Translations under genes and position numbers: made by a program
Notes under the pieces: model-generated
Databases searched by the model: none
What the model was told of the DNA's origin: nothing
What the model saw: only the letters and a program-made list of their open reading frames with translations
Assembly: GCA_003427395.1 (NCBI GenBank)
Contig: BFEA01000023.1
Location: 3,250,798 to 3,314,797 of the forward strand
Direction: 5' to 3'
DNA length: 64,000 nt
From: Chara braunii
Lineage: Eukaryota; Plantae; Charophyceae
Shown: in pieces, positions 10,875-63,640 of the stretch
How the letters are laid out: every line of letters begins with the position of its first letter
Numbering within the stretch: the first letter of the stretch is position 1

Positions 10875-12041
10875 TCACTCGAAATCATCCTCAGAAAAGG
10901 ATTCCTCCGATTCCGAGAGTGAAGGTTTCGTTTCGTCCTTGATAACCACTCCTTTACTGGCCCTGGTAATAAACGGCAACGGGATGGTAGATGGGTCATA
11001 TGCCACAACAGACCTTCTAGTGATCAATCGCTTGATAGCCAAATCTCTGTTTCCATACGCTACCTTCTCCCTCCGGCAGGCTTCCTTCAATTCGTCAATG
11101 GTCAGGGCGTCATAGAAATCATGGCAGTCCTGTTCAAATTTCTCCTTACCTCCTGGACCACATGAAGCCATGATGTGCTTCAATGACAAGTCAATCTTCT
11201 TCGGCGTACTCGTCGTCCCGCCCTCCTTCAGCTGCTCGCTATTCAGCACTTCAATTCTTGTTTTCGCCTCCTCCCAGAGTCAGGTATTCGACCTCTTCTC
11301 GGGGGTGACGATCGGTGGACTATTCCCAACAGGTAAGTCGGGGCCACGCTTCCTTTTTTCCAACAATTCCAACCTCGCCGCTTGCTTGCGTAGGGCAAGC
11401 AGCTCTTCGTCCTCTGCTTCTTCCATCCCGAAAGTTCGTTGCGTGATGCTTCTCCGCAACCGCTCTTTTTCTTCATTAATTGCCTCCGTTCTTTCGATCG
11501 CACGCACCTGTTTCTTTCCTTTGTCTGCGCTTCCCACGCCCTCCCTTTGAAATTCGCTTCGCAAAATCCTCATTAGTCTAACATCGCGTTCCTCTTCGTG
11601 CCTTATCCTCTGTTCCTCTCTTAACGCCCTCCTGGTTTCCTTCGCCCGTCTCGCCTCGTCCTCCACTCTTCTTCGCTCCTCTTCCCTTTCACGTTCGATC
11701 CTCTCACGTCGTTCCTCAACCATCTGCATGAAGTACTCTCTCAGAAGCGCGTTCGTCTCCTCCGTACAATCCCCACGTTCATTACGATCCCCGCCACTTT
11801 CAGCCGAGCGGCTCCTCCGGAACCCGAAGCTGTCGCTGCCCGACGTTGATCATCCATACCGTGTTTGCCCAGTGGAAATAACCGATGGAGCGAATGGTCT
11901 CCCCTGTGCCTTTGCCCTCTAATAGTCCGCGCAATCACGGATGTAGTGACCACCCTCACCGCACTTATAACACTTCCCGCCATCTGGCGGCATCCCGCCA
12001 CCACCCTCAGTCCCCTTCCGAGAATCACCTTCCTCACTCAT
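10875..12041 (-). pseudogene. PLE-1 ORF1 (~388 codons): CCHC zinc knuckle, coiled coil, SAP-like motif, acidic tail; 3 internal nonsense codons
   Basis: ORF-track pieces 12158-11919, 11729-11280 and 11249-10875 share one frame; CYKCGEGGHYIRDC, E/R-rich coil, LTIDELKEACRREKV..RDLAIKRL. Confidence 0.8.
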
Positions 12042-12187
12042 CACCGGAAAAGTAGTACTTCGTCTCACCCAACTCGGCCACTGAAGCCAGTCACTCACAA
12101 CTCCTTCACAGAGAACACTTTTGTCTTGAACAACAACCGCCACCTCCGCTAGGTACAATTGCCTAGATGGTTATGACCCTAGGTAGT

Positions 12188-12912
12188 AGGAAAGCATAGA
12201 ACTGCATTTGTACATACGTAGTTTATACACCAAGAACTGCACGCAGTCGACAGCCCACGGACCAAGCCCAAAAGTTGCAAATAAACATAACATCTGATTC
12301 CGAAAGAAGAAAACACGTTAACCAAGTGGTGGGTTAATCGTGATCATGCATTCTGCCCATGGATGCTAATGAGTGAAAGCACATCCCGACTCCCATCCTC
12401 TCCTCTCCTCTCTCCTTCGCTACCACGCCCGCTCCATGGTTGCGCCATCGCCTCAAAGGCAAAAGAGGATTCTATCTACCGATACTACCCTACTTATGTC
12501 CTTCGTCAACCGAAATTCCCCGTCGGATTCGTACGCCGTACAGACAGTACCAACCTAACGACCATTCCTCCCGCCAATGCTTTCGACAATATCAGAATTC
12601 ACAAAAGACAAAAAAAGAAAGAACCACCGCATGCTATACTTCACACGGCGTTTCTGCAAATTGCGTGCGCGACTCACGGTACTTTCTGGAAAGTACAGAC
12701 ACCCAGTACTTTTTCCAGAAGGTATCGGTTCAGTACAAACCAGCGGACCCAAATTTTCAAAAAGAAGTCCCACGCCTGCTACACTACATACGGCGTTCCC
12801 ACAACTAACAGATGCAACCCTGGTACTTTCTGGAAAGTACGGGCCCAAGTACTTTTCACAGGAGGTATCAGTACAGTATATATCCAAGGACAATTTCCTG
12901 GTGCCAATACAC
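12188..12912 (-). repeat. PLE-1 5' pseudo-LTR
   Basis: Near-identical direct repeat of 7125-7850. Confidence 0.92.
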
Positions 12913-13508
12913 TCACTCATTTTAATTCTTTTTTTTTTTTTTCTTTTTTTTATCATAGTGTTTATTTTCTGTATTTGATTTTTAATTCAAATTTGGTAAA
13001 GAATTTGGATGTAGTGCCCGGGCAAATGTTGTTTAGTTTATTTTTCTCCGTAACATATTTGTTTCGCGGAATTTTTGGAAAACGTTTTTTTTTTTTTTTT
13101 TTTTTTTTTTTCCGTGTTCGGCCCGAATGGCCGAACGCCTTCCGAAGGGGTCCCGTATGTTCCAGCGTTCGGGTTCGGGCGTTCGGCCCATCCCGAACGC
13201 CGGTAACCCTGTATATATATATATATTTGAACAATTATTGCGATCAGGGTAACCGGTGTTCAAGACGGGCCGAACAGTCGATGCTGAACGCCCGAACGTA
13301 CGGGACCCCTTGGGGATGCGTTCGGCCGTTTAAGCTGAATGCAGACAAAAATAAATAAAAAATAGAAAAAATAAAAAATAAAAAATTAATAAATAAAAAG
13401 GTAATAAATAATAATAATAAAATAATAATAAATAATAATAAATAAATTATAAATAAATAATAAATTAAAAAAAACAAATCATAAATAAAATAATAATTCA
13501 AAAAAATC

Positions 13509-13776: not shown

Positions 13777-13983
13777 AAAAAAACTGAAAAAAAGTTACAT
13801 TATGACAAAAAATACAATAAACAATATTTGTTTGATTATTACATTTCAACTCCTTACCAAATTTGAAATAAAAATGAAACAAAAAAAAATAAAACTAATA
13901 AAGAAATAAAAAATAAAATGAGAATTAAAATTAGTGAGCGGGCGAGCACGTTTTCGACACGATAATTTTTGGCAAGTTTTCAT

Positions 13984-14279
13984 TTAGGCTACCAGAGTGG
14001 CCCGGGGTCACTTGCCTGGCCGGGCCAAAAAAAAATTTAAAAATAGAAATAAAAACAATATTTTTAAACTTTTATTTTTATTTTAAAATTGGTAAAGACT
14101 TTCGATGTGACCCTAGGGCAAAAGTTGTTCAGTTTATGTTTCTGCATAACATAGTTTGTTTTCGGAGTTTTGGGTTTTTTTTTTTTTTTTTTTTTTACTG
14201 GGAGCTCTTGTATGGGCTGGCCACCCAATCTTGTACGGGCTGGCCACCCAGGTTCCGGGCGGCCCGGCTGGTAGCCTAG
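13984..14279. mobile_element. Small hAT-like MITE-B
   Basis: TIR TTAGGCTACCAG / CTGGTAGCCTAG; perfect 8-bp TSD GTTTTCAT (13976-83, 14280-87). Confidence 0.85.
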
Positions 14280-14897
14280 GTTTTCATGTTTTTTTGGCAT
14301 AGCCAAATGCCCTGAAAATTTACAATTATGTACTTCATATAATACAAGAAGGAATAGGAAAGAGTGCAAAAGTGCCAAAACGCAATCACCTCACAACAGA
14401 CACGTCATAGTCGTAAACGACGCAAAGCCGCAAGCGACAAGGACGAAAGAAGTTGTACTTGCATTATGAAAAATATCGTCAACTCCTGGGAAAAGCCCGG
14501 TGGTCAACACACAGTGAAGCGCAAGCGTAAGCGGAAGGGCGACCGCCTGTTCGATCGGCAGAAGCCAAGAAAAGAACAGTCGACCGCTCATACCGCACTT
14601 GTGTCCTATCGGACAAAAAAGAGGTCCTAGTCGTCAGTCTTACTGTTTTTATCACAACCGACAATGACTATTCCCTTGCCTAATTTTAGATCGGCCTACC
14701 CCCCGCTACTTCCATCAGTATTCCCTAACCCGGATTGGTCCCAGTCTAGCACAGTTCCAATACCCAACCCTTATATCCCGAAACAGTACCCCCAGGTTCC
14801 CGATACCGATAGGGTATTCCCTGGTCCCAACAAACAAACAAGCAAACCCTTCCTTCCTCAGTACCTACAACAAATCAAAAACTTCCAATCCACACAT

Positions 14898-17810
14898 CTA
14901 ATCCATAATCCTAATGTCCGTCATCAACACGGCGAACATCTTCCAACTCTCATTCTTGTCCCTTGTGAAGTTCATGAGCGCCCGACTGAACCAACCATCC
15001 GGGTAATTGCACTTCTGCAATTTCATCCTCAGGAGGATCAGGGTCTCAAAGGCTTCCATGCTGTCCATGGAATTCTGATAGATCCGATGCAGCGCACTGG
15101 TCCAGGAATTAGATTCATGAAACGTCTGAAAAGGCAGTTGCACCCTCTTTCGCAATTCCGCATCATTCTTCATCCCCTGCACCGTCCAAATGAAAGGGAA
15201 CTCCTCCCTGATTGTCAATCTACATCCCAAGAACATCCATTGGTTTTCCACCTCATCAGTGCGTTTCAAGGTCAACGCCCCGTCATAACACCTCTCAAAT
15301 CTTCTGATTATCTCCCTAGCCTTCTCCTTGGATCCTGCCCTTCGCGGATTGTATGCTACGAAAATAGAAGCATCATCCACAAATCTTAGCCCACCAACCA
15401 ACCTCCTCTGACTCCCAAGCGTCAACAAAAAGTCCCATTCAGCCTTCCCACACATAAGGTATGCCAGTGGGGGGCTCGAGCTCTTCCCCATTGGTATCCC
15501 CACAATCTGTCTCAGCAACACTCCACATGCTCTAGTAAAACAAAACTCCAATTCAAACGACACGAATTCCACCAAATATCTAAATGAAATTTTGACAAAT
15601 CCCTCGATCACACCATTCTTACTCAACTTAACACCCCAACCCGACTTTTTTACAAAGATTCCATCGCAACCTTTTTGAGAGAAGTCTCATACACACCACT
15701 CGACAGCCCTCATGATTGTCTCGTGCGGGAGCTTATTAAACATATCTTTAATGTCATAAGAAGCTCCCAGCACAAGTACATCAGTATTAGTCCTTGCTAG
15801 TATATCATTCATTCTACTCAATTTTTCCTTCATCATTGAGACTGCTCGAAGGTTAAAATGACTCGTTTCTGGCAAAGCAAACAGCAATCCGTTCACCGCT
15901 TGCGAAATCTTCTTGCATGCTTTGACAGATGGTTCATCAAAGGTAGGGCAGATCGGACGGAATTTTTCCGTATCCTTATGCTTGGGTAATGCATACGCAT
16001 GCCCCACCTTTCCTCCCCCATCCCACTTTCCATGTTCCTCAAGCTGTCTCCGTATATACTCTTCACCTCCCATCCTCAGCACGACCCTCTCCTCCTCCAC
16101 ACACTCAAGGTATCCTTCGTTCTCCAAAAAGGTGGCTGCCATCCCCTTTGCGTATAGCACAGGACACATCACAAGTGTGTCACCGGGGTTTCTATCCAAC
16201 GGGGACAACACAAAGCCTTGGAGTTTTTCTCTCACCACCACAACTTCTTCTACACACGCCTCCCTCACTCTGTTCGCCTCTTTCGCGAAGCACTGTTCAA
16301 TTTCTGCCCTCGTGACATCAACTCGTCCTCCTTTGATCCCCGATTTTTCCTCGAATGTCCTGAACGCCTCCTCTATTTCGTCTTTTAGCGTCTCCCTTCT
16401 CACCCGACTCTCGTGCCTCGGAACGTTCTTGGAATTCCTCACTATCGTCGGGACACCTTCAAGATCGCCTATTCGAAAATGCACGTGCCCATCCTTTCTT
16501 GGATAGGGTCTGCCAGCACAAATACAGCTGGCCACACACAACGACGCAAAGCGCTGGTGGTTATGGATCAATTCCCCAACATTAGGACATCTAGTCCATA
16601 CCACACGTGTCCTTCTTTTTATCATTTCCTTCAGGGCACCTTCATTTTTGAGTCCCCCAATCTTCTTCCTCGCAATTTTGGTTACTTCATTCTTCCTTAT
16701 TCGGCCGTCGAAATTTATCTTCACAATCACCCTTCGTCTCACACCTAACCCATGTGCACTCCTAATCGCCTGGGATATCATACACCGAGCCTTCGTTCTA
16801 CTCCGCTTCGTCGTAAACGACTTAATGACACTGTAATACTTCAGCAACTCCACGAGACCCAAACGCTTCAACTTTGTCTTCAACTTCGGATTCTTGAACA
16901 TCTTCACCATCTGATCCCGCCGACGCAAGATCGCTGGAGAGGCCTCATCGATTCGCCTCACAACAATCTTTCCCCCTTCTTCAAAAAAATTCTTACAATT
17001 ACGCAAGGGCTTCGTTCTCTTCCCACGTCTGACTCTCGTTTCCCCAAACAACCTTCGCACCAACCTCCACCCGTCGGCCCACACGCTACCTCCTCCGGAT
17101 TCCAGGTGCGTGTCCCCCTTCACTCCGTCTTCATGCAATTTCCGAAGTAACTTCACGACACCTACCGTGGCATTGTGATCCCCTTTCCTTCGCAGTTCAA
17201 CTATCTTTCCAGACCCACAAACCTTCTTATCTAACAGTTCCCCACCCTTCGTAGTACTTTTCCTCCTCTGTCTCTCCTTCCTGCCCGGTCTTCTCTTCCC
17301 CTTTCTTCCCGATCTCTTTCCCCTGGAAACTCAAGAGTTAAGGCTAGGCGACCATATCCTGATCAGAGTCCGCTCCACAGCCTCGAGTTCCTTCCTTTCC
17401 TTACTGAAAAAAAACGGTATTGCGACATACTTCTGAGCTCCCACTTTCCCGAACCAGTTGTATAGTGCTCACCTCCGCTTACCCCCACTCCCCTTCCCGA
17501 GGCACGAATGCTCCCGCCATCTCGCCCACAATTGCCTCTCGGTCATCCCAATATACACTGGTTTGTACCATGGTGATATCAAGATATACACACATCCTTC
17601 CGGTTTACTCAGATTCAGACACCCCTTCTCCAGTTCCCCTTCCAAGTACCTTACGAATTTATCCCCCCATCCCACTTCTCCTTCCAATATTAACTTGATC
17701 GTGACTAATCGGAATAGTCTATCATCATCTTTGTTCTTCCCACCGTCAGCTCGTCTTCGCCCGCTGATATCCTTGGCTAAATCCCACAATTTCTCCCTTC
17801 TCCGACGTCT
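14898..17810 (-). pseudogene. PLE-2 ORF2: GIY-YIG + RT (disrupted)
   Basis: CVYILISPWYKPVYIGMTERQLWARWREH; YALPKHKD, YDIKDMF, QIVGIPMGKSSSPPLA, RFVDD. Confidence 0.9.
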
Positions 17811-17855
17811 TCATTCTTCCTTCTCAGATTCACTCTCTTCTTCCTCCGGTTTCGT

Positions 17856-18879
17856 TGTGAGGAAACCCGGGGAGGGGCACCTACCGTTCGCCGAAGCCAA
17901 GGGCAACGGCGTCTGTCACCCGCCGCGCCCGCTTCCGAGGTCCTCGGCGACCAGCAGGAATCGAAACTTGCGGCGTCCTATCACGCTTCCAATTTTCTTT
18001 TTCTTTCTTTTTGTAATTTAGCAACTTCACACAGCAAGGGGTTTCGACGGTCAACTGGTAATACCACAAGTTCACACAACCGTAAGTTTCAACAATCGAC
18101 TGGTTTAACAGCTAATCAACAGTTCAGCGAGTTCACGCAACGATGAGTTTCAATAGCTGGCTAGTAACTCAGCAAGTTCAAGCAAGAGTGAGTTTCAACA
18201 GCCAATCGACAGTTCAGCGAGTTCACGCAACAGTGAGCTTCAACAGTCAACTGGCAAATTAGCTACGGGCGCAGCAGCGAGTTTTCGGAGTCAACCTTGG
18301 ATGTGCCCCCCCTGGTTCTCTTTCTCTCTCTCTCTCTCTGTTCTCTCTCTCTCACTGTTCTCTGTCACTCTCTGTCGCTGTTCTCTCTCTCTCACTCTTG
18401 CTGTTCTCTCTCTCTCACTCTCGCTGTTCTCTCTCTCTCACTCTCCCCCGGTGTTTGGTAAGCTTTGTATACTCCATCATNANANAAGGTGCTGGCCAGG
18501 TCCGTGCGCTGTCTCGAGTAAACAAATTAATATGACATAAATTTGGATGCACACGTAGACCCGTTCGTGTCCCCTCCACCCAAGGTCTTCCATGAGAGTT
18601 ACCCACTTGGGTGTATCAATGGCTAGGTAATAGGGATGGGTACACTTCCTTGCAGTTCGCTCTTGCTCGATGCGGGCTGGGTTTCCCCCCAAATGAACCA
18701 AAAGGAATATTGCTCCTTCGCTAGTGTATGAGAAGATTCTCAGCCATACCCCCCTTTTATGTTGTGACTAGCGACTCAATTACTCTTCACATAATGAGAA
18801 AGAGTAATGTCAGGGGATCGCTGAGAGCTGTACCTCGAGTATTCACCAATGCAGTGGAGCAATAAAATCTGATCGAAAA

Positions 18880-18910
<31 letters not shown>

Positions 18911-19186
18911 TTATTATATATATTGCGACCTATCAATCCAGCGGGGACTCCGAGTCCGTGTATCTCTGAAGATCAGCGAGTACGCTCTTCTTTCCTTCGT
19001 TTTGTCTCCCTATTTTCCCCCTCTTTCCTTGAGACACTCACTCACACTTTCAGTCTCAGTCCCTCTCTCTCTCCTCTGGCTCTATCTCCCCCTCTCACGC
19101 ACACCAACACTTACGCATTCTTACCCCTAAGGACGCTCTCTCTCTGTGCTCTCCCTCTGTGCTCTCTCTCTGCGCTCCCCCTTTGT

Positions 19187-19242
<56 letters not shown>

Positions 19243-22200
19243 GCTCGCTCTCTCTCTCTCTCTCGCTTACTCTCTCTCTTCTCTTTGCTGTGTGTCAGTC
19301 CCCCTCTCTCTCTCTCTCTCCCAGCCTGCAGTGCTACGGCACGCTCAGGGGAGTTACAACCGCGCTGTCCCCTAGCGTTATGTTCATTTTGTCACGAAAA
19401 TAAGATCCGTACGGACAAAATTCGCGTTTTCAAATCCCCCTTGTGAATATGTGGTCTGATCTGCTATTGGCGCCGACAGTGGAGGATGCCAGCCTAGAAG
19501 TCGTCCTCATGTCGTCTGAGAGTGGTCGTTCCCGCGAACAGTAAGTATGGCTGATTGCATCATCAGCGGGAGCGGCTGTTCCCACGAACAGCGGGTATTT
19601 TTGGTTCTCCCTTCTGCGCGAGTGGTTGGATCACACCCACCCTGGGGGTTATTGATTGTCTCATCAGTATAAAATAACAGATGGCATAAATGATTACCTG
19701 CGACGTTCACATGACAAAATGTTGGTCGTAAGGATCGCATGTGTCGCAGAGATTATGCAGCGGGGGAAAGTGACTGGTCACACCAACAGTGGGTGCATCT
19801 GTTTCTCTCTTCAGCGTGAGCGCTGATCAATTCAACAGCGGGTGCCGATCACACCTGCAGTATGTCCCTCTTCAAGTCACAGATGCGCCTNGTANGCCGG
19901 TGCCCCTTTCCACACCCCGGTCATGGCTNCCTAGATAACGNCTTTNCCGCCTGCTCGCACTGTACTNCTGNCACTCTTATTCTCTCTCCTNTGTCTCTCA
20001 CATGGGAGTCTTCCATNGCTGTTGGTTCTGTCTTGTGACTCGGAACAGCTTTGGTTCTGTATTGTGACTCGGGAGGGGCATACTCATCTTCGTCTTCACT
20101 CCATAGCTCTGCGATAAGACTCCGAAGTCAATCGCGCTTATGCGAGGCACACCTGGCTCGNGACTCGGGAGGGGCATACTCATCTTCGTCTTCACTCCAT
20201 AGCTCTGCGATAAGACTCCGAAGTCAATCGCGCTTATGCGAGGCACACCTGGCTCGCTGCTTCCTCCCCGGTTGAAACGCGCTATGCTGAGTGCCCCCTA
20301 CGCCAGGCACTCCCCACCTTCTCGCCCAGTCTCTTTGCCTTTCTACTCCCACACGAGGAGCAACCGCTTGCGCGCTGGGGGTTCTGCCCCGTGCTTTCTC
20401 CTCGCCCGCGGTGCGCAACCGCCTGAGCGCCGATGCCCCCACTCCGAGCTTCGTGTCGCGGGTACACCTTGCTCATTTCGCCTTTCTCTTCCGACCGTCT
20501 TCCCTATATGGTTCCCTAGTTCACCCGAGCGTGGACCTCGGCCCACTCCCAGCCCGTAGGCCTTAGCAAACTAGAGGTAATAACTCAGTATGTCCCAACA
20601 GCCCCAACTGGTCCACCCTTACCACTCTGTTTCGGTATCAGAATAGCATGTTGCGTTCGCTGTGAGTCCCCACTGTCGACAGAGAGCCGCTGCGGCAGGT
20701 TTATGCCGATGCAAAAATATAGGACCGGAGTGATCATGAACCAGGCCTATTACCGCGACGTAGCCGATTTGGACCAGATCAGTGTTACACACCAAGACTT
20801 GCCATAGGAGCATCGTATCAGCATCAGCCATGAGGTTATACCACACCAGCGCTAGGAGTGACGAATCTGCAGTCGTACCAGTCTTGGGCCGCCGCGCCGA
20901 CGCTAATTATGAAGTTCAGAATTGCAACAATCCGCACCGTGCTAGTGTCGTCCCAGATCCGAACCCGAGTCGACCCGCTGCTGTAGTTCCGGGCCTGTCG
21001 TAAAATGGTGTAGCAGTTCCGGACCTGAGAGTTAATCTCCGCGGGAGCCTTAACCAGCGCAAAACCTGAAATAAGTTGATGTCGAACCCACACCGAGCCT
21101 GGAACAATTGTTGTAACGGTGTCGGTTCCGAACCCGAACTGAGCTACTGCGGTGGTCTCAGACCTGAAAATAAATCACTACGAGGGTTCTGACCCTGAAA
21201 ACGAGACGCCGTAGTGGCCTCATGCCTGAAACATACTGACGCCGGCCCCATACCGAACCAGAAATATACCGTTGCAGAGGCTGGAGGCCTGAAGATAAAT
21301 CACCGCGGAGGTTCTGAACCTGAAATAGATCGTCACAGTGCTCCCGGACCTGAAAATAAATCACCACAGATGTCCCGAACCTGAAGTAGATCATCACAGT
21401 GCTCCCGGACNNNNNNNNNNNNNNNNNNNNNNNNNNNNNNNNNNNNNNNNNNNNNNNNNNNNNNNNNNNNNNNNNCTGAAGTAGATCATCACAGTGCTCC
21501 CGGACCTGAGAATAAATCACCACAGAGGTCCCGAACCTGAAATAGATCGTCACAGTGCTCCCGGACCTGAGAATAAATCACCGCAGTGAAACAGGTGTCA
21601 CCGGGCCCATACCGTACCTGAAGCACGTTAGACACCATAGGATGTAGCCACTCCGTAACATCCCTCGTACCCGCACCGAACCAAACATCATAGTGACCCA
21701 AGGTAGCACCTGTCCATGCGTCTCCCGCTCTCAAAATATCCCAACTGCGGTAGTGTTAGTAATCAAGCAAACCAGCGAAAGCGACGCAGGGAACCTCGAC
21801 CATCGGCAGTATTGAAAACTGTTAAAATCCGGGGAAAATGTTCAATCCGGGGTCAAGGCTGATGGCGGGTAATCGAGGCGAAATTAGGCCACTCTCCGAA
21901 TAATCATGGGTTCCCGTCCCTTTCATCGTTTTTCATCGTTCTTCCCTTTCCTTAATTTTATTGTCGGAAATAGTGAATCAACTGTAAGTTCCCTAAAATT
22001 AAATTCCGAGAAAGTTTAAATAAATGGCCGAATTCCTTCTGTTTCTTTTCTCTTTTACCATTTTTAATCTCTTTCTATGTTTTTAATTTCTTCGCCGGGA
22101 ACATAAAATAACAAGAGTATTCCCCCTAGAATTAAATGCCGTGAAAAATAAAGAAATTAAGGGATATTATGTTTTTTTCCTTCACCCCTACCGGTCTTAA

Positions 22201-22576
22201 TCCTTTACCCCCTCTTTAATTTTGGTACTAAAATAGATAAAAATTTGAGGCCTCTTTTCGGCCCCGGTCGTATTGCTGCAAAAACGTTGTAGCGAGGTCA
22301 GTTCCCGCGATGCCTCTTCGCGACAGGCCAATCCGGGTCTAACCTTCTGAACGACTGGAAATAGCGGTCTCTAGATATGCCGAGTGCGCCTACCCATCTC
22401 ACCGTCTTTGAGGGTTAGTCGTAAGGTTCAGTGTGCCCAAAATCAGGGGTGCCCTGAGTTCCCCTAATTTTTGCTGCCTGGTCATACCAGAGTACCGTCA
22501 AAACACGGACTTGTCCTTGGGCCTAAGTCCCAAAACCGCAGATTTCAGGCGGCGCACTGCTTGTGGCCGCCTAACA
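17856..22576 (-). mobile_element. ~4.7 kb solo LTR of a giant-LTR (probably Ty3/gypsy) retrotransposon
   Basis: TG...CA termini, 4-bp TSD TCGT (17852-55, 22577-80), no coding capacity, both ends homologous to the LTR at 46897-48434 and 54020-57920; orientation taken from the PBS at 57925. Confidence 0.85.
21160..21590. repeat. ~30/60-bp tandem subrepeat inside the LTR
   Basis: CGGACCTGAAAATAAATCACC.../CGAACCTGAAGTAGATCATCAC units; a similar array lies at 47200-47540. Confidence 0.8.
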
Positions 22577-62100: not shown

Positions 62101-62959
62101 AATGGCCTGGCTACCTTACTTAACTCTGAGGGTTGTCTGATTGAAGGGGTTTAAATTCTCGTTNNNNNNNNNNNNNNNNNNNNNNNNNNNNNNNNNNNNN
62201 NNNNNNNNNNNNNNNNNNNNNNNNNNNNNNNNNNNNNNNNNNNNNNNNNNNNNNNNNNNNNNNNNNNNNNNNNNNNNNNNNNNNNNNNNNNNNNNNNNNN
62301 NNNNNNNNNNNNNNNNNNNNNNNNNNNNNNNNNNNNNNNNNNNNNNNNNNNNNNNNNNNNNNNNNNNNNNNNNNNNNNNNNNNNNNNNNNNNNNNNNNNN
62401 NNNNNNNNNNNNNNNNNNNNNNNNNNNNNNNNNNNNNNNNNNNNNNNNNNNNNNNNNNNNNNNNNNNNNNNNNNNNNNNNNNNNNNNNNNNNNNNNNNNN
62501 NNNNNNNNNNNNNNNNNNNNNNNNNNNNNNNNNNNNNNNNNNNNNNNNNNNNNNNNNNNNNNNNNNNNNNNNNNNNNNNNNNNNNNNNNNNNNNNNNNNN
62601 NNNNNNNNNNNNNNNNNNNNNNNNNNNNNNNNNNNNNNNNNNNNNNNNNNNNNAATGGTCCAGCTCTATGTCTTATGTAAGATGGGTATAAGGATTCAAG
62701 AACTTAAAGATTTATGAACTATCTATATGGAATAAACTTGGGGTGGTGAGAGTACTTACATTGGTGGTTTGGTTTGCATATGACTGGACGGGATGGCTAG
62801 TTTGTTTAAGTTTTATTACTATAGGTAGTTGCTGTAGTTGCTCGTCACGTGCTAGAGTCATAGGAGTTAGTGTCAATTCCTGCATTTTTTTGTAATAACG
62901 TTTTTTTCTACTTAGGTCAATTCCTGCATTTTCTTAGATCTTTTCTTATACTTGGCTTT

Positions 62960-63640
62960 GTATAAATCTTGGCGAGTTACTTTTCCTCCAGGAAGCGCTG
63001 CCGAAATTTCTGCAAATCCAAGAAGTGAGTCAACTTTTGACTTGTCAGAGTTCAACTTGTTTTTTTCATATATGGATTAGTATAAATATGGAAAGTCTCA
63101 TTTTCTAGAGGGAGTGCTGCCCAAATTTTTACGAATTCAGAGAGTTAGATAAAATTGGACTTTGAGAAGTCAAAGTTATTCTCAAATTCTGGTCCTCGCT
63201 TTGTATAAATTTTGGGAGAGCACTTTTCTAGAGGGAGTGCTGTCGAAATTTCTGCAAAATTAAGGAGTTAGTTAAATTCAGTCTAAAAGTTGAGCTCGAG
63301 CTGTTGTTCGAGTTCGTATCTGACTTAGTATAAATATGGGAAGTCTCTCTTTCTAAAGGGAGTGCTGCCCAAATTTCTACTAATTCAGAGAGTTAGACAT
63401 AAGTTAACTTTCAAGAGTAAGAGATTAATTCTGCTTTCGTATCTGACTTAGTATAAATCTGGGAAGTCTCCCTTTCTAAAGGGAGTGCTGCCCAAATTTC
63501 TACTAATTCAGAGAGTTGGACAAAATTTGACTTTGCAGGAGTTAGAGATTATTTCGGCTCCCATATCTGGGCTTATATAAATTATGAAAAGACACTTTTC
63601 CTACAGGAAGCGCTGCCAAAGTTTTTTTAGTTTACAGGAG
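62960..63640. repeat. ~6 x ~122-bp tandem array
   Basis: Recurring GTATAAAT.TGGGA..TTTCTA.AGGGAGTGCTGCCCAAATTTC at ~62990, 63110, 63233, 63358, 63481, 63606. Confidence 0.85.

What the first reader, a model, noticed from the sequence alone, without database searches (positions are those of the whole stretch)
12135..12187. Conserved stem-loop at the 5' leader of two PLE families whose pseudo-LTRs are unrelated
Seen on the minus strand right after the upstream pLTR. PLE-1: AGGGTCATAACCATCTAGGCAATTGTACCTAGCGGAGGTGGC. PLE-2 (23812-23855): AGGGTTGCAACCTGCTAGGCGATTATACCTACGCTAGGTGGC. Both form TAGG-[C(A/G)ATT(G/A)TA]-CCTA with an 8-nt loop, extendable by ACC/GGT and G-U-rich pairs. It is the only clearly shared non-coding block I could find between the families. 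PLE pLTRs often contain hammerheads, and I found no canonical one here. Inference: a cis-acting RNA element (cleavage, circularisation or RT template switch) or a promoter element defining the unit 5' end.
Basis: partly seen in the sequence, partly recalled or inferred. Interest (0 to 1): 0.7.

Follow-up and report, generated by a model that had tools for sequence, protein, structure and literature searches.

The report
Conserved hairpin beside retrotransposon copying start
Several distantly related jumping-gene families in a stonewort alga keep one 45-letter sequence right beside the point where their inserted copies end; it likely folds into an RNA hairpin that would tell the element's reverse transcriptase where to start copying.

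Summary
The shared block is real. PLE-1 (12139-12180) and PLE-2 (23813-23854) match at 31 of 42 nt. This is their only non-coding similarity above shuffles; their pseudo-LTRs align at chance level. The elements are decayed Chara braunii Chlamys-type Penelope-like elements (zinc-knuckle ORF1, GIY-YIG then RT) and have no hammerhead. The block is not coding. Many genomic contigs share only this block. By eye, two published relatives (Chlamys-2 and -5_cBra) begin with a look-alike that keeps the pairs through double changes at four positions. PLE-2 folds into it robustly. The PLE-1 copy does not, but it carries a minority base at one pair. Both elements' 3' ends map 16 nt upstream of the conserved ACC, as does the curated start of Chlamys-2 (21 nt in Chlamys-5). 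Best reading (about 0.5): the RNA docking signal that positions internal reverse-transcription initiation, the Chlamys counterpart of the Penelope/Poseidon 'tail' stem-loop. No known ribozyme matches, and function is untested. New variant of a known kind.

The parts
12135..12179 (-). Conserved 45-nt block of PLE-1. Predicted outer helix (ACC/GGU core, A.G mismatch, G-U-rich extension), internal loop, inner CUAGG/CCUAG stem and 8-nt loop.
   Evidence: Contig depth peak and loose ends at 12137/8 and 12177/8. The window base at 12174 is the minority allele that breaks one G-C pair.
23809..23853 (-). Conserved 45-nt block of PLE-2, same register
   Evidence: Core pairs have P 0.84-1.00 even with 60-nt flanks. 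A common variant at 23823 restores the C-G pair under the inner stem.
12180..12187 (-). 8-nt A/C-rich linker (6 of 8 A or C) between the element's 3'-end position and the block
23854..23861 (-). 8-nt A/C-rich linker (7 of 8 A or C); 5 nt if the TC shared with the target duplication is counted as element
12188..12912 (-). PLE-1 upstream pseudo-LTR (5'-truncated upstream copy), joined to the host repeat through about 15 nt of imperfect microhomology
   Evidence: 95% identical to 7125-7850; junctions
7125..7850 (-). PLE-1 3' end (3' pseudo-LTR); it ends without the block
23862..24345 (-). PLE-2 upstream pseudo-LTR
   Evidence: 95% identical to 14348-14834
14351..14834 (-). PLE-2 3' end (3' pseudo-LTR); it ends without the block and is followed by a 14-bp target duplication (14336-14349, twin at 24401-24414)
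10875..12041 (-). PLE-1 ORF1, gag-like with a CCHC zinc knuckle, interrupted by stops; ATG at 12041, about 95 nt past the block
   Evidence: Pfam zf-CCHC E 4.8e-6; C. braunii homologues start at the equivalent Met
7964..10874 (-). PLE-1 ORF2: N-terminal GIY-YIG, CxC motif, RT; interrupted by stops and frameshifts
   Evidence: 52-58% amino-acid identity to PLE-2 ORF2; RVT_1 only weak, E 0.062
22545..23717 (-). PLE-2 ORF1 remnant with zinc knuckle
   Evidence: Pfam zf-CCHC E 3.1e-8; 50-58% identity to PLE-1 ORF1 in frame-matched blocks
14898..17810 (-). PLE-2 ORF2 remnant (GIY-YIG then RT), separated from its ORF1 by about 4.7 kb of other repeats
   Evidence: Pfam GIY-YIG E 9e-4, below the gathering score

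Best explanation
The block is a conserved non-coding element at the unit boundary of gag-bearing Chlamys Penelope-like elements that likely folds as an RNA stem-loop and would dock the element's RT-endonuclease so that reverse transcription starts internally about 8 nt upstream of it. Shown: the conservation, the non-coding character, and the position 8 nt past both window elements' 3' ends. Inferred: in a read-through RNA that crosses a pseudo-LTR/body junction (tandem array or circle), the protein binds the ACC/GGU helix with its purine-G mismatch and the apical loop, the nicked target primes on the A/C-rich linker just 5' of the stem, and the new copy therefore ends at a fixed distance from the hairpin and lacks it. 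A second start site at the 3' foot of the stem would give the optional 30-40 nt 'tail' known from other PLEs. Only the hairpin is under selection, so the pseudo-LTRs and leaders are free to diverge.
For: (1) Only non-coding block above chance; 74% identity, against 65-71% in the long alignable coding blocks. (2) In two DNA runs of one study, contig depth over 12137-12187 is 262-404 and 422-812, against 36-47 and 52-90 over the zinc-knuckle region. Contigs leave the window sequence at both edges of the block (9 contigs at 12137/8 and 9 at 12177/8 in run X1), so many otherwise diverged repeats share just this block. (3) Broken pairs in the window copies are repaired by common natural alleles: 12174 (301 of 361 depth, 23 contigs in X1; 414 of 469, 21 contigs in X4) and 23823 (31 of 60 depth, 4 contigs in X1). 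No variant is listed in ACC, TAGG, CCTA or GGTGG at the thresholds used. (4) PLE-2 folds into the structure with core P 0.84-1.00 regardless of flanks. (5) By eye, 2 of 3 published type-2 consensus sequences (Chlamys-2 and -5_cBra, PMC8557442 File S6) begin with ACC-N21/24-GGTGRC around a hairpin, with double changes at four pair positions, one of them showing three pair types. That pattern occurs only 3 more times in 128,000 strand positions of the window. (6) Element 3' ends lie 16 nt before ACC in both window elements although the end sequences differ; the curated Chlamys-2 boundary is also 16 nt before it. The distance to the ORF1 start codon varies from about 100 to about 870 nt. (7) Precedent: in the anole PLE, RT starts internally at two sites in an AC-rich stem-loop at the pLTR-ORF junction, these sites define the tail, and the hammerhead is dispensable (PMC11167929).
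Against: No binding or RT activity was tested. Folding z-scores are not significant, and are slightly better on the antisense strand. The PLE-1 copy does not adopt the outer stem. RNAalifold on the two copies picks a different fold, pairing GGUGG with the pseudo-LTR end. The window pair shows no double change, and one mismatch in PLE-2 (23849/23812) is not repaired by any listed variant. Covariation rests on a by-eye alignment of four sequences with a pattern relaxed after seeing them; Chlamys-2 also breaks two outer pairs. The fixed distance rests on two insertions (one with 3 nt of ambiguity) and one consensus; Chlamys-5 gives 21 nt, and Chlamys-3 (termini ambiguous) lacks the sequence. No tail-bearing copy was demonstrated. 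The contigs come from one study that may be the window's own source, and their depth is not a copy number. A fixed distance fits an endonuclease site, a transcription start or a ribozyme equally well.
Confidence: 0.5

Rival explanations
1. It is a DNA recognition site for the element's GIY-YIG endonuclease. The protein binds the quasi-palindrome in double-stranded DNA and nicks a fixed distance away, which homes new copies to the element's own junction and builds tandems.
For: The Drosophila Penelope tail was required for endonuclease recognition of plasmid DNA (as stated in PMC11167929). Nested inverted repeats suit a dimer. GIY-YIG homing enzymes cut at a distance from their binding site (recalled).
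Against: The two inverted repeats are not co-centred, their spacing differs between families (24 vs 21 nt), and changes keep G-U-type pairs, which matter to a single strand rather than a duplex. Both window elements inserted into an unrelated host repeat without the block.
Confidence: 0.15
2. It is a packaging or chaperone signal bound by the ORF1 zinc-knuckle protein, like a retroviral psi hairpin in the 5' leader.
For: The sequence was seen only in families with the zinc-knuckle ORF1 (PLE-1, PLE-2, Chlamys-2, -5) and in 0 of 8 other Chlamys or PLE-X consensus starts read by eye.
Against: Lineage restriction follows equally from shared descent. It does not explain the fixed distance to the element end. 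The three ORF1-less type-1 Chara families begin with their own conserved hairpin-like block.
Confidence: 0.12
3. It is an internal promoter or an RNA-processing signal (transcription start at the unit boundary, or a splice acceptor region), and the hairpin is incidental.
For: Drosophila Penelope has an internal promoter within about 46 nt of its start site (PMC2377424), and Chlamys-3_cRei has a 5' UTR intron across the pLTR/body boundary (PMC8557442). Both copies have a pyrimidine tract and AG just before the block.
Against: Pair-preserving changes are not expected of a duplex promoter. Pol III A-like and B boxes occur in PLE-1 only, about 9 nt apart, and not in PLE-2. Some contigs of other families leave the window sequence within the AG/GG junction, and the two G's there vary.
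Confidence: 0.12
4. It is a new small self-cleaving ribozyme that cuts tandem transcripts into unit-length RNAs about 8 nt upstream of the fold.
For: Fixed distance to the element end; PLE-1 and PLE-2 lack the hammerhead of their relatives.
Against: No Rfam ribozyme hit. No HDV-like topology and no pseudoknot partner of 5 bp or more at the same offset in both copies. The bases at the putative cut and in the linker are not conserved. Relatives carry both the block and a hammerhead.
Confidence: 0.06
5. It encodes a conserved N-terminal extension of ORF1.
For: It lies upstream of ORF1, and the block-internal length difference between families (24 vs 21 nt) is a multiple of three.
Against: PLE-1 has a stop inside the block in the ORF1 frame, and the two copies read it in different frames relative to the zinc knuckle. 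None of six translations matches any of 33 Chara ORF1-like proteins above shuffled peptides. In 7 of the 8 proteins with an intact knuckle the protein starts 14-25 residues before it. Variants in ORF1 fall at third codon positions (10 of 13, p=0.002), while the block has only 3 variable sites in 43 nt, 1 at a third position.
Confidence: 0.02

Closest known systems
RT-initiation stem-loop and 'tail' of Poseidon from Anolis carolinensis (PAc; PMC11167929)
   Same: Lies at the pseudo-LTR/body junction just past the element's 3' end; stem-loop with an A/C-rich start region; length comparable to the 30-40 nt tail; independent of the hammerhead.
   Different: The PAc site lies inside the ORF of a C-terminal-endonuclease element and is shown biochemically. 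This one is non-coding, belongs to the N-terminal-endonuclease Chlamys clade, is conserved across families, and is untested. No sequence comparison with the PAc hairpin was made, and its figures were not seen.
Chlamys type 2 of Chara braunii (Chlamys-2, -3, -5_cBra; PMC8557442)
   Same: Upstream zf-CCHC ORF, GIY-YIG then CxC then RT, partial-tandem pseudo-LTRs; Chlamys-2 and -5 begin with a look-alike of the block.
   Different: The published families have a hammerhead near the 3' end, which PLE-1 and PLE-2 lack. The parts of the paper read describe no conserved 5' stem-loop ('hairpin' has 0 occurrences in the main text).
Hammerhead ribozymes of PLE pseudo-LTRs; HDV-like ribozymes at the 5' end of R2 elements (R2 recalled)
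   Same: Small structured RNA at a retroelement boundary.
   Different: No catalytic core, no three-way junction, no nested pseudoknot, no Rfam match.
Hepadnavirus epsilon and the telomerase template-boundary helix (both recalled)
   Same: Works-like analogy: an interrupted stem-loop that an RT binds to set where copying starts or stops. PLE RTs are the sister group of telomerase RT (PMC8557442 abstract).
   Different: No sequence or structural homology was tested; no evidence of protein priming or repeat addition.

Membership tests
Chlamys clade of Penelope-like elements (host elements) | GIY-YIG endonuclease N-terminal to RT | tested here: met
   Pfam GIY-YIG E 9e-4 (below gathering) upstream of the RT region in PLE-2; PLE-1 collinear at 52-58% identity
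Chlamys clade of Penelope-like elements (host elements) | CxC motif between endonuclease and RT | tested here: met
   CxC read directly in both translations, after the 'HNH' stretch
Chlamys clade of Penelope-like elements (host elements) | Partial tandem giving pseudo-LTRs | tested here: met
   726- and 487-nt direct repeats at 95%
Chlamys clade of Penelope-like elements (host elements) | Placement in the RT phylogeny | not tested
   No tree was built
C. braunii Chlamys type 2 | Upstream ORF with gag-like zf-CCHC | tested here: met
   Pfam zf-CCHC above the cut-off in both elements
C. braunii Chlamys type 2 | Canonical hammerhead near the 3' end | tested here: not met
   No core in the pseudo-LTRs and no Rfam hit; the elements are treated as hammerhead-less relatives of type 2, not as full members
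PLE tail / RT-initiation stem-loop (PAc type) | Located immediately past the pseudo-LTR end in read-through sequence | tested here: met
   8 nt past the end in both elements
PLE tail / RT-initiation stem-loop (PAc type) | Forms a stem-loop | tested here: inconclusive
   Robust in PLE-2, not in the PLE-1 copy; z-scores not significant; covariation by eye only
PLE tail / RT-initiation stem-loop (PAc type) | Present as an optional 30-40 nt extension on some genomic 3' ends | tested here: inconclusive
   Absent from both 3' ends in the window; loose ends at 12137/8 may be tails or other families' leaders
PLE tail / RT-initiation stem-loop (PAc type) | RT initiates there in vitro | not testable with these tools
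   Needs purified protein
Hammerhead ribozyme | CUGANGA and GAAA core on a three-way junction | tested here: not met
   positive control found at 215-269
HDV-like ribozyme | Nested double pseudoknot with the L3 and J4/2 motifs | tested here: not met
   No Rfam hit; 0 hits of my own descriptor, which had no positive control
Twister, twister-sister, pistol, hatchet ribozymes | Match to the family's covariance model and pseudoknots | tested here: not met
   No ribozyme among the Rfam matches at E<=10; no shared loop partner of 5 bp or more at the same offset
Pol III type-2 internal promoter | A box and B box at working spacing in all copies | tested here: not met
   Only in PLE-1, about 9 nt apart; none in PLE-2

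The most novel reading that the evidence does not exclude
The block is a new class of small self-cleaving ribozyme that cuts tandem Chlamys transcripts just upstream of itself, creating the template end for reverse transcription and making the hammerhead dispensable in these families.
Probability: 0.06. Interest if true: 0.9.

Novelty: new variant of a known kind. Interest (0 to 1): 0.5.

Why it matters
How Penelope-like elements, the sister group of telomerase RT, choose where to begin reverse transcription is an open question with one in vitro example (the anole element). If the best reading holds, this is a 45-nt signal with defined pairs and conserved unpaired bases that can be mutated directly, in the other major PLE lineage (N-terminal endonuclease). 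It would show that a structured RNA ruler, not the hammerhead, sets the element's 3' end. It would also serve as a marker for finding unit boundaries of these abundant repeats in Chara. If it is only a promoter or packaging signal, it is still a usable boundary motif, of lower interest.

Tried and rejected
No whole genome is held for this window, so copies could not be collected and no covariance model or R-scape test was possible. Exact pattern scans of metagenome, viral and prokaryote genome contigs found 0 matches each. An ORF1-profile scan of metagenome contigs gave 395 pattern matches and 0 confirmed. Expression: no RNA holder listed. Raw oligo-dT reads laid 0 (X5, 6% of the run read), 2 partial reads under 90% alike in the pseudo-LTR (X6, 12%) and 0 (X7, 13%); this is no test of expression or of RNA ends. 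Rfam gave only chance-level matches (CrcZ, mir-1422, sR14, HTH-XRE, beta_tmRNA, sR53, SOX2OT). Rejected: coding extension, Pol III boxes and HDV topology, conserved loop pseudoknot (one 4-bp coincidence at the same offset, one 5-bp pair 3 nt apart, from 77 and 43 candidates). The alternative RNAalifold structure was set aside because it rests on two sequences and Chlamys-2 does not show that pairing by eye; PLE-1, PLE-2 and Chlamys-5 could form it, so a switch is not excluded. The majority-allele form of the PLE-1 block was not folded, so whether that allele restores the outer stem in the ensemble is open. The published consensus sequences were compared by eye only. Earlier findings of this scan: three look-ups, all empty. 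Literature: seven searches listed no paper describing this motif; subscription papers are mostly outside the library.

Full report
Observation. Both quoted strings are present on the minus strand, at 12139-12180 and 23813-23854, and match at 31 of 42 positions. Against 500 dinucleotide shuffles of pLTR plus leader, the block is the only alignment above chance (score 32, shuffle maximum 31), while the pseudo-LTRs align at chance level. A degenerate 30-mer finds exactly these two places in the window, against 0 expected.

Host elements. Both are decayed two-ORF retroelements: ORF1 with a CCHC zinc knuckle, and ORF2 with GIY-YIG, CxC and RT in that order. All 33 distinct ORF1-like proteins found are Chara braunii models. 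This is the architecture of the second Chlamys type described for that species (PMC8557442, section 9), except that the published families carry a hammerhead about 200-330 nt from the 3' end (supplement) and these two do not. Rfam does find a hammerhead elsewhere in the window, so the search works. PLE-1 has pseudo-LTRs at 12188-12912 and 7125-7850; PLE-2 at about 23862-24345 and 14351-14834.

It is not coding. In the ORF1 frame PLE-1 has a stop inside the block, and PLE-2 reads it in a different frame relative to the knuckle. No translation matches the 33 proteins above shuffled peptides. Seven of 8 proteins with an intact knuckle start 14-25 residues before it, which in PLE-1 is the ATG at 12041. 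In contigs, 10 of 13 variable sites in ORF1 are third codon positions, while the block has 3 variable sites in 43 nt at the 5% threshold despite about tenfold more depth.

It is shared widely. Laying contigs of two DNA runs at 80% likeness gives depth 262-404 (X1) and 422-812 (X4) over 12137-12187, 84 and 190 in the next bin, and 5-90 elsewhere, including the knuckle. Contigs leave the window sequence at 12137/8 and 12177/8, and some rejoin it at the ORF1 start, so other families share the block and ORF1 but not the leader between. PLE-2 shows a smaller peak. These runs belong to one study that may be the window's source; depth is not copy number; they show within-genome diversity only. By eye, the published Chlamys-2 and Chlamys-5_cBra consensus sequences start with ACC, a hairpin and GGTGRC within 60 nt. 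Chlamys-3 (termini ambiguous) starts with a different hairpin. Eight other starts that I read (Chlamys-1, -4, -6_cBra, PLE-X2_cBra, meVir, cAtm, bBra, pPol) lack the sequence. The relaxed pattern has a background of about 0.001-0.002 per 40 start positions in this window, but I chose it after seeing those sequences.

Structure. Numbering from the first G of GGGT (12179; 23853), the proposed fold pairs 2-7 with 40-45, leaves 8 opposite G39 unpaired, pairs ACC 9-11 with GGU 36-38, and closes an inner stem 14-18/27-31 with an 8-nt loop. Of 28 cells in the two copies, 25 pair, with two one-sided and no double changes. PLE-2 folds this way with core probabilities 0.84-1.00 even with 60-nt flanks; the PLE-1 copy does not. 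Two of the three broken cells are repaired by common alleles (12174; 23823); the third is not. By eye, the published relatives add double changes at 5-42 (C-G, G-C, A-U), 12-35, 15-30 and 18-27, and keep G6-C41, ACC/GGU, G39 and a loop with G/A-U-A; Chlamys-2 breaks 7-40 and 4-43. Against the fold: z-scores are not significant and do not favour the sense strand, and RNAalifold on two sequences prefers another pairing. I rate a conserved single-strand stem-loop as likely (about 0.75), not shown.

Position. The 3' copy of PLE-1 ends at the position equivalent to 12188, and unbroken identity in PLE-2 ends at 23862 (23859 if two letters shared with the 14-bp target duplication are counted). Both are 8 nt before the block and 16 nt before ACC, although the terminal sequences differ. 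The curated start of Chlamys-2 is also 16 nt before ACC, and that of Chlamys-5 is 21 nt before. The distance to ORF1 varies from about 100 to about 870 nt. The block is therefore tied to the element end, not to the ORF.

Mechanism. In the one PLE studied in vitro, RT starts internally on RNA crossing the pLTR-ORF junction, at two sites in an AC-rich stem-loop; the stretch between the sites is the genomic tail, and hammerhead cleavage is not needed (PMC11167929). The Chara block sits at the equivalent place, follows an A/C-rich linker, has about the tail's length and persists with or without a hammerhead. I infer that it is the docking hairpin that fixes the RT start (0.5). One consequence is that copies like these two, which lack the block at their 3' end, could only be copied in full from tandem or circular RNA. 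Rivals: endonuclease DNA site (0.15), ORF1 packaging signal (0.12), promoter or splice signal (0.12), new ribozyme (0.06), coding (0.02).

What I read. PMC8557442: outline, passages, sections 9, 15 and 19, supplement parts 1, 2, 45, 46, 47 of 59 and two supplement searches. PMC11167929: parts 1-2 of 4 of the text (all results, start of methods); its supplement gave only figure lettering, and Figs S1B and S2, which show the hairpin and start sites, could not be seen and may bear on the comparison. PMC2377424 and PMC3846280: passages. bioRxiv 10.64898/2026.07.22.740005: abstract and outline only. Remarks on R2, hepadnavirus epsilon, telomerase boundary helices and distance cutting by homing endonucleases are recalled. 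Seven searches listed no description of this motif.

Verdict. A real, lineage-wide, non-coding boundary element, not described in the papers I could search, likely a structured RNA signal for RT initiation. New variant of a known kind; interest 0.5.

Noticed in passing
window 215-269, minus strand: Canonical type III hammerhead ribozyme (Rfam RF00008, 48.7 bits against a gathering score of 48.5, E 2.8e-9), not part of PLE-1 or PLE-2; its host element was not identified.
   Followed up: partly
window 6777-7128 with 12909-13172; 13975-14350 with 24402-24679; uninterrupted copy 26727-27263: Both PLEs inserted into copies of the same abundant host repeat, at sites within about 100 bp of each other in the repeat and in opposite orientation. 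PLE-2 made a 14-bp duplication; PLE-1 removed about 20 bp of target. This may be target preference or just repeat abundance.
   Followed up: partly
window 24346-24400: The 5' junction of PLE-2 holds a 25-nt piece of its own pseudo-LTR and a roughly 30-nt echo of nearby host sequence before the pseudo-LTR proper, suggesting template jumps.
   Followed up: no
PMC8557442 File S6, starts of Chlamys-1, -4, -6_cBra: The three type-1 Chara families begin with their own shared block of about 65 nt that looks by eye like an interrupted stem-loop plus a second hairpin, of unrelated sequence. A lineage-specific boundary hairpin may be general in Chlamys.
   Followed up: no
window 12188-12205 and 23862-23885: Both pseudo-LTRs end in a pyrimidine-rich stretch with TTTCCT, and loose ends of other families' contigs upstream of the block are also T-rich on the sense strand; not significant by alignment.
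   Followed up: partly
window 49475-49996 and 53092-53613: Long inverted repeats (523 nt, 88%) around about 3.1 kb, probably a DNA transposon.
   Followed up: no
window 1112-1616; 62941-63624: Tandem arrays with units of 54 nt and about 123 nt.
   Followed up: no
window 17810-22545: About 4.7 kb of other repeats split PLE-2, including a segment (21559-22580) 87-88% identical to 47513-48438.
   Followed up: no
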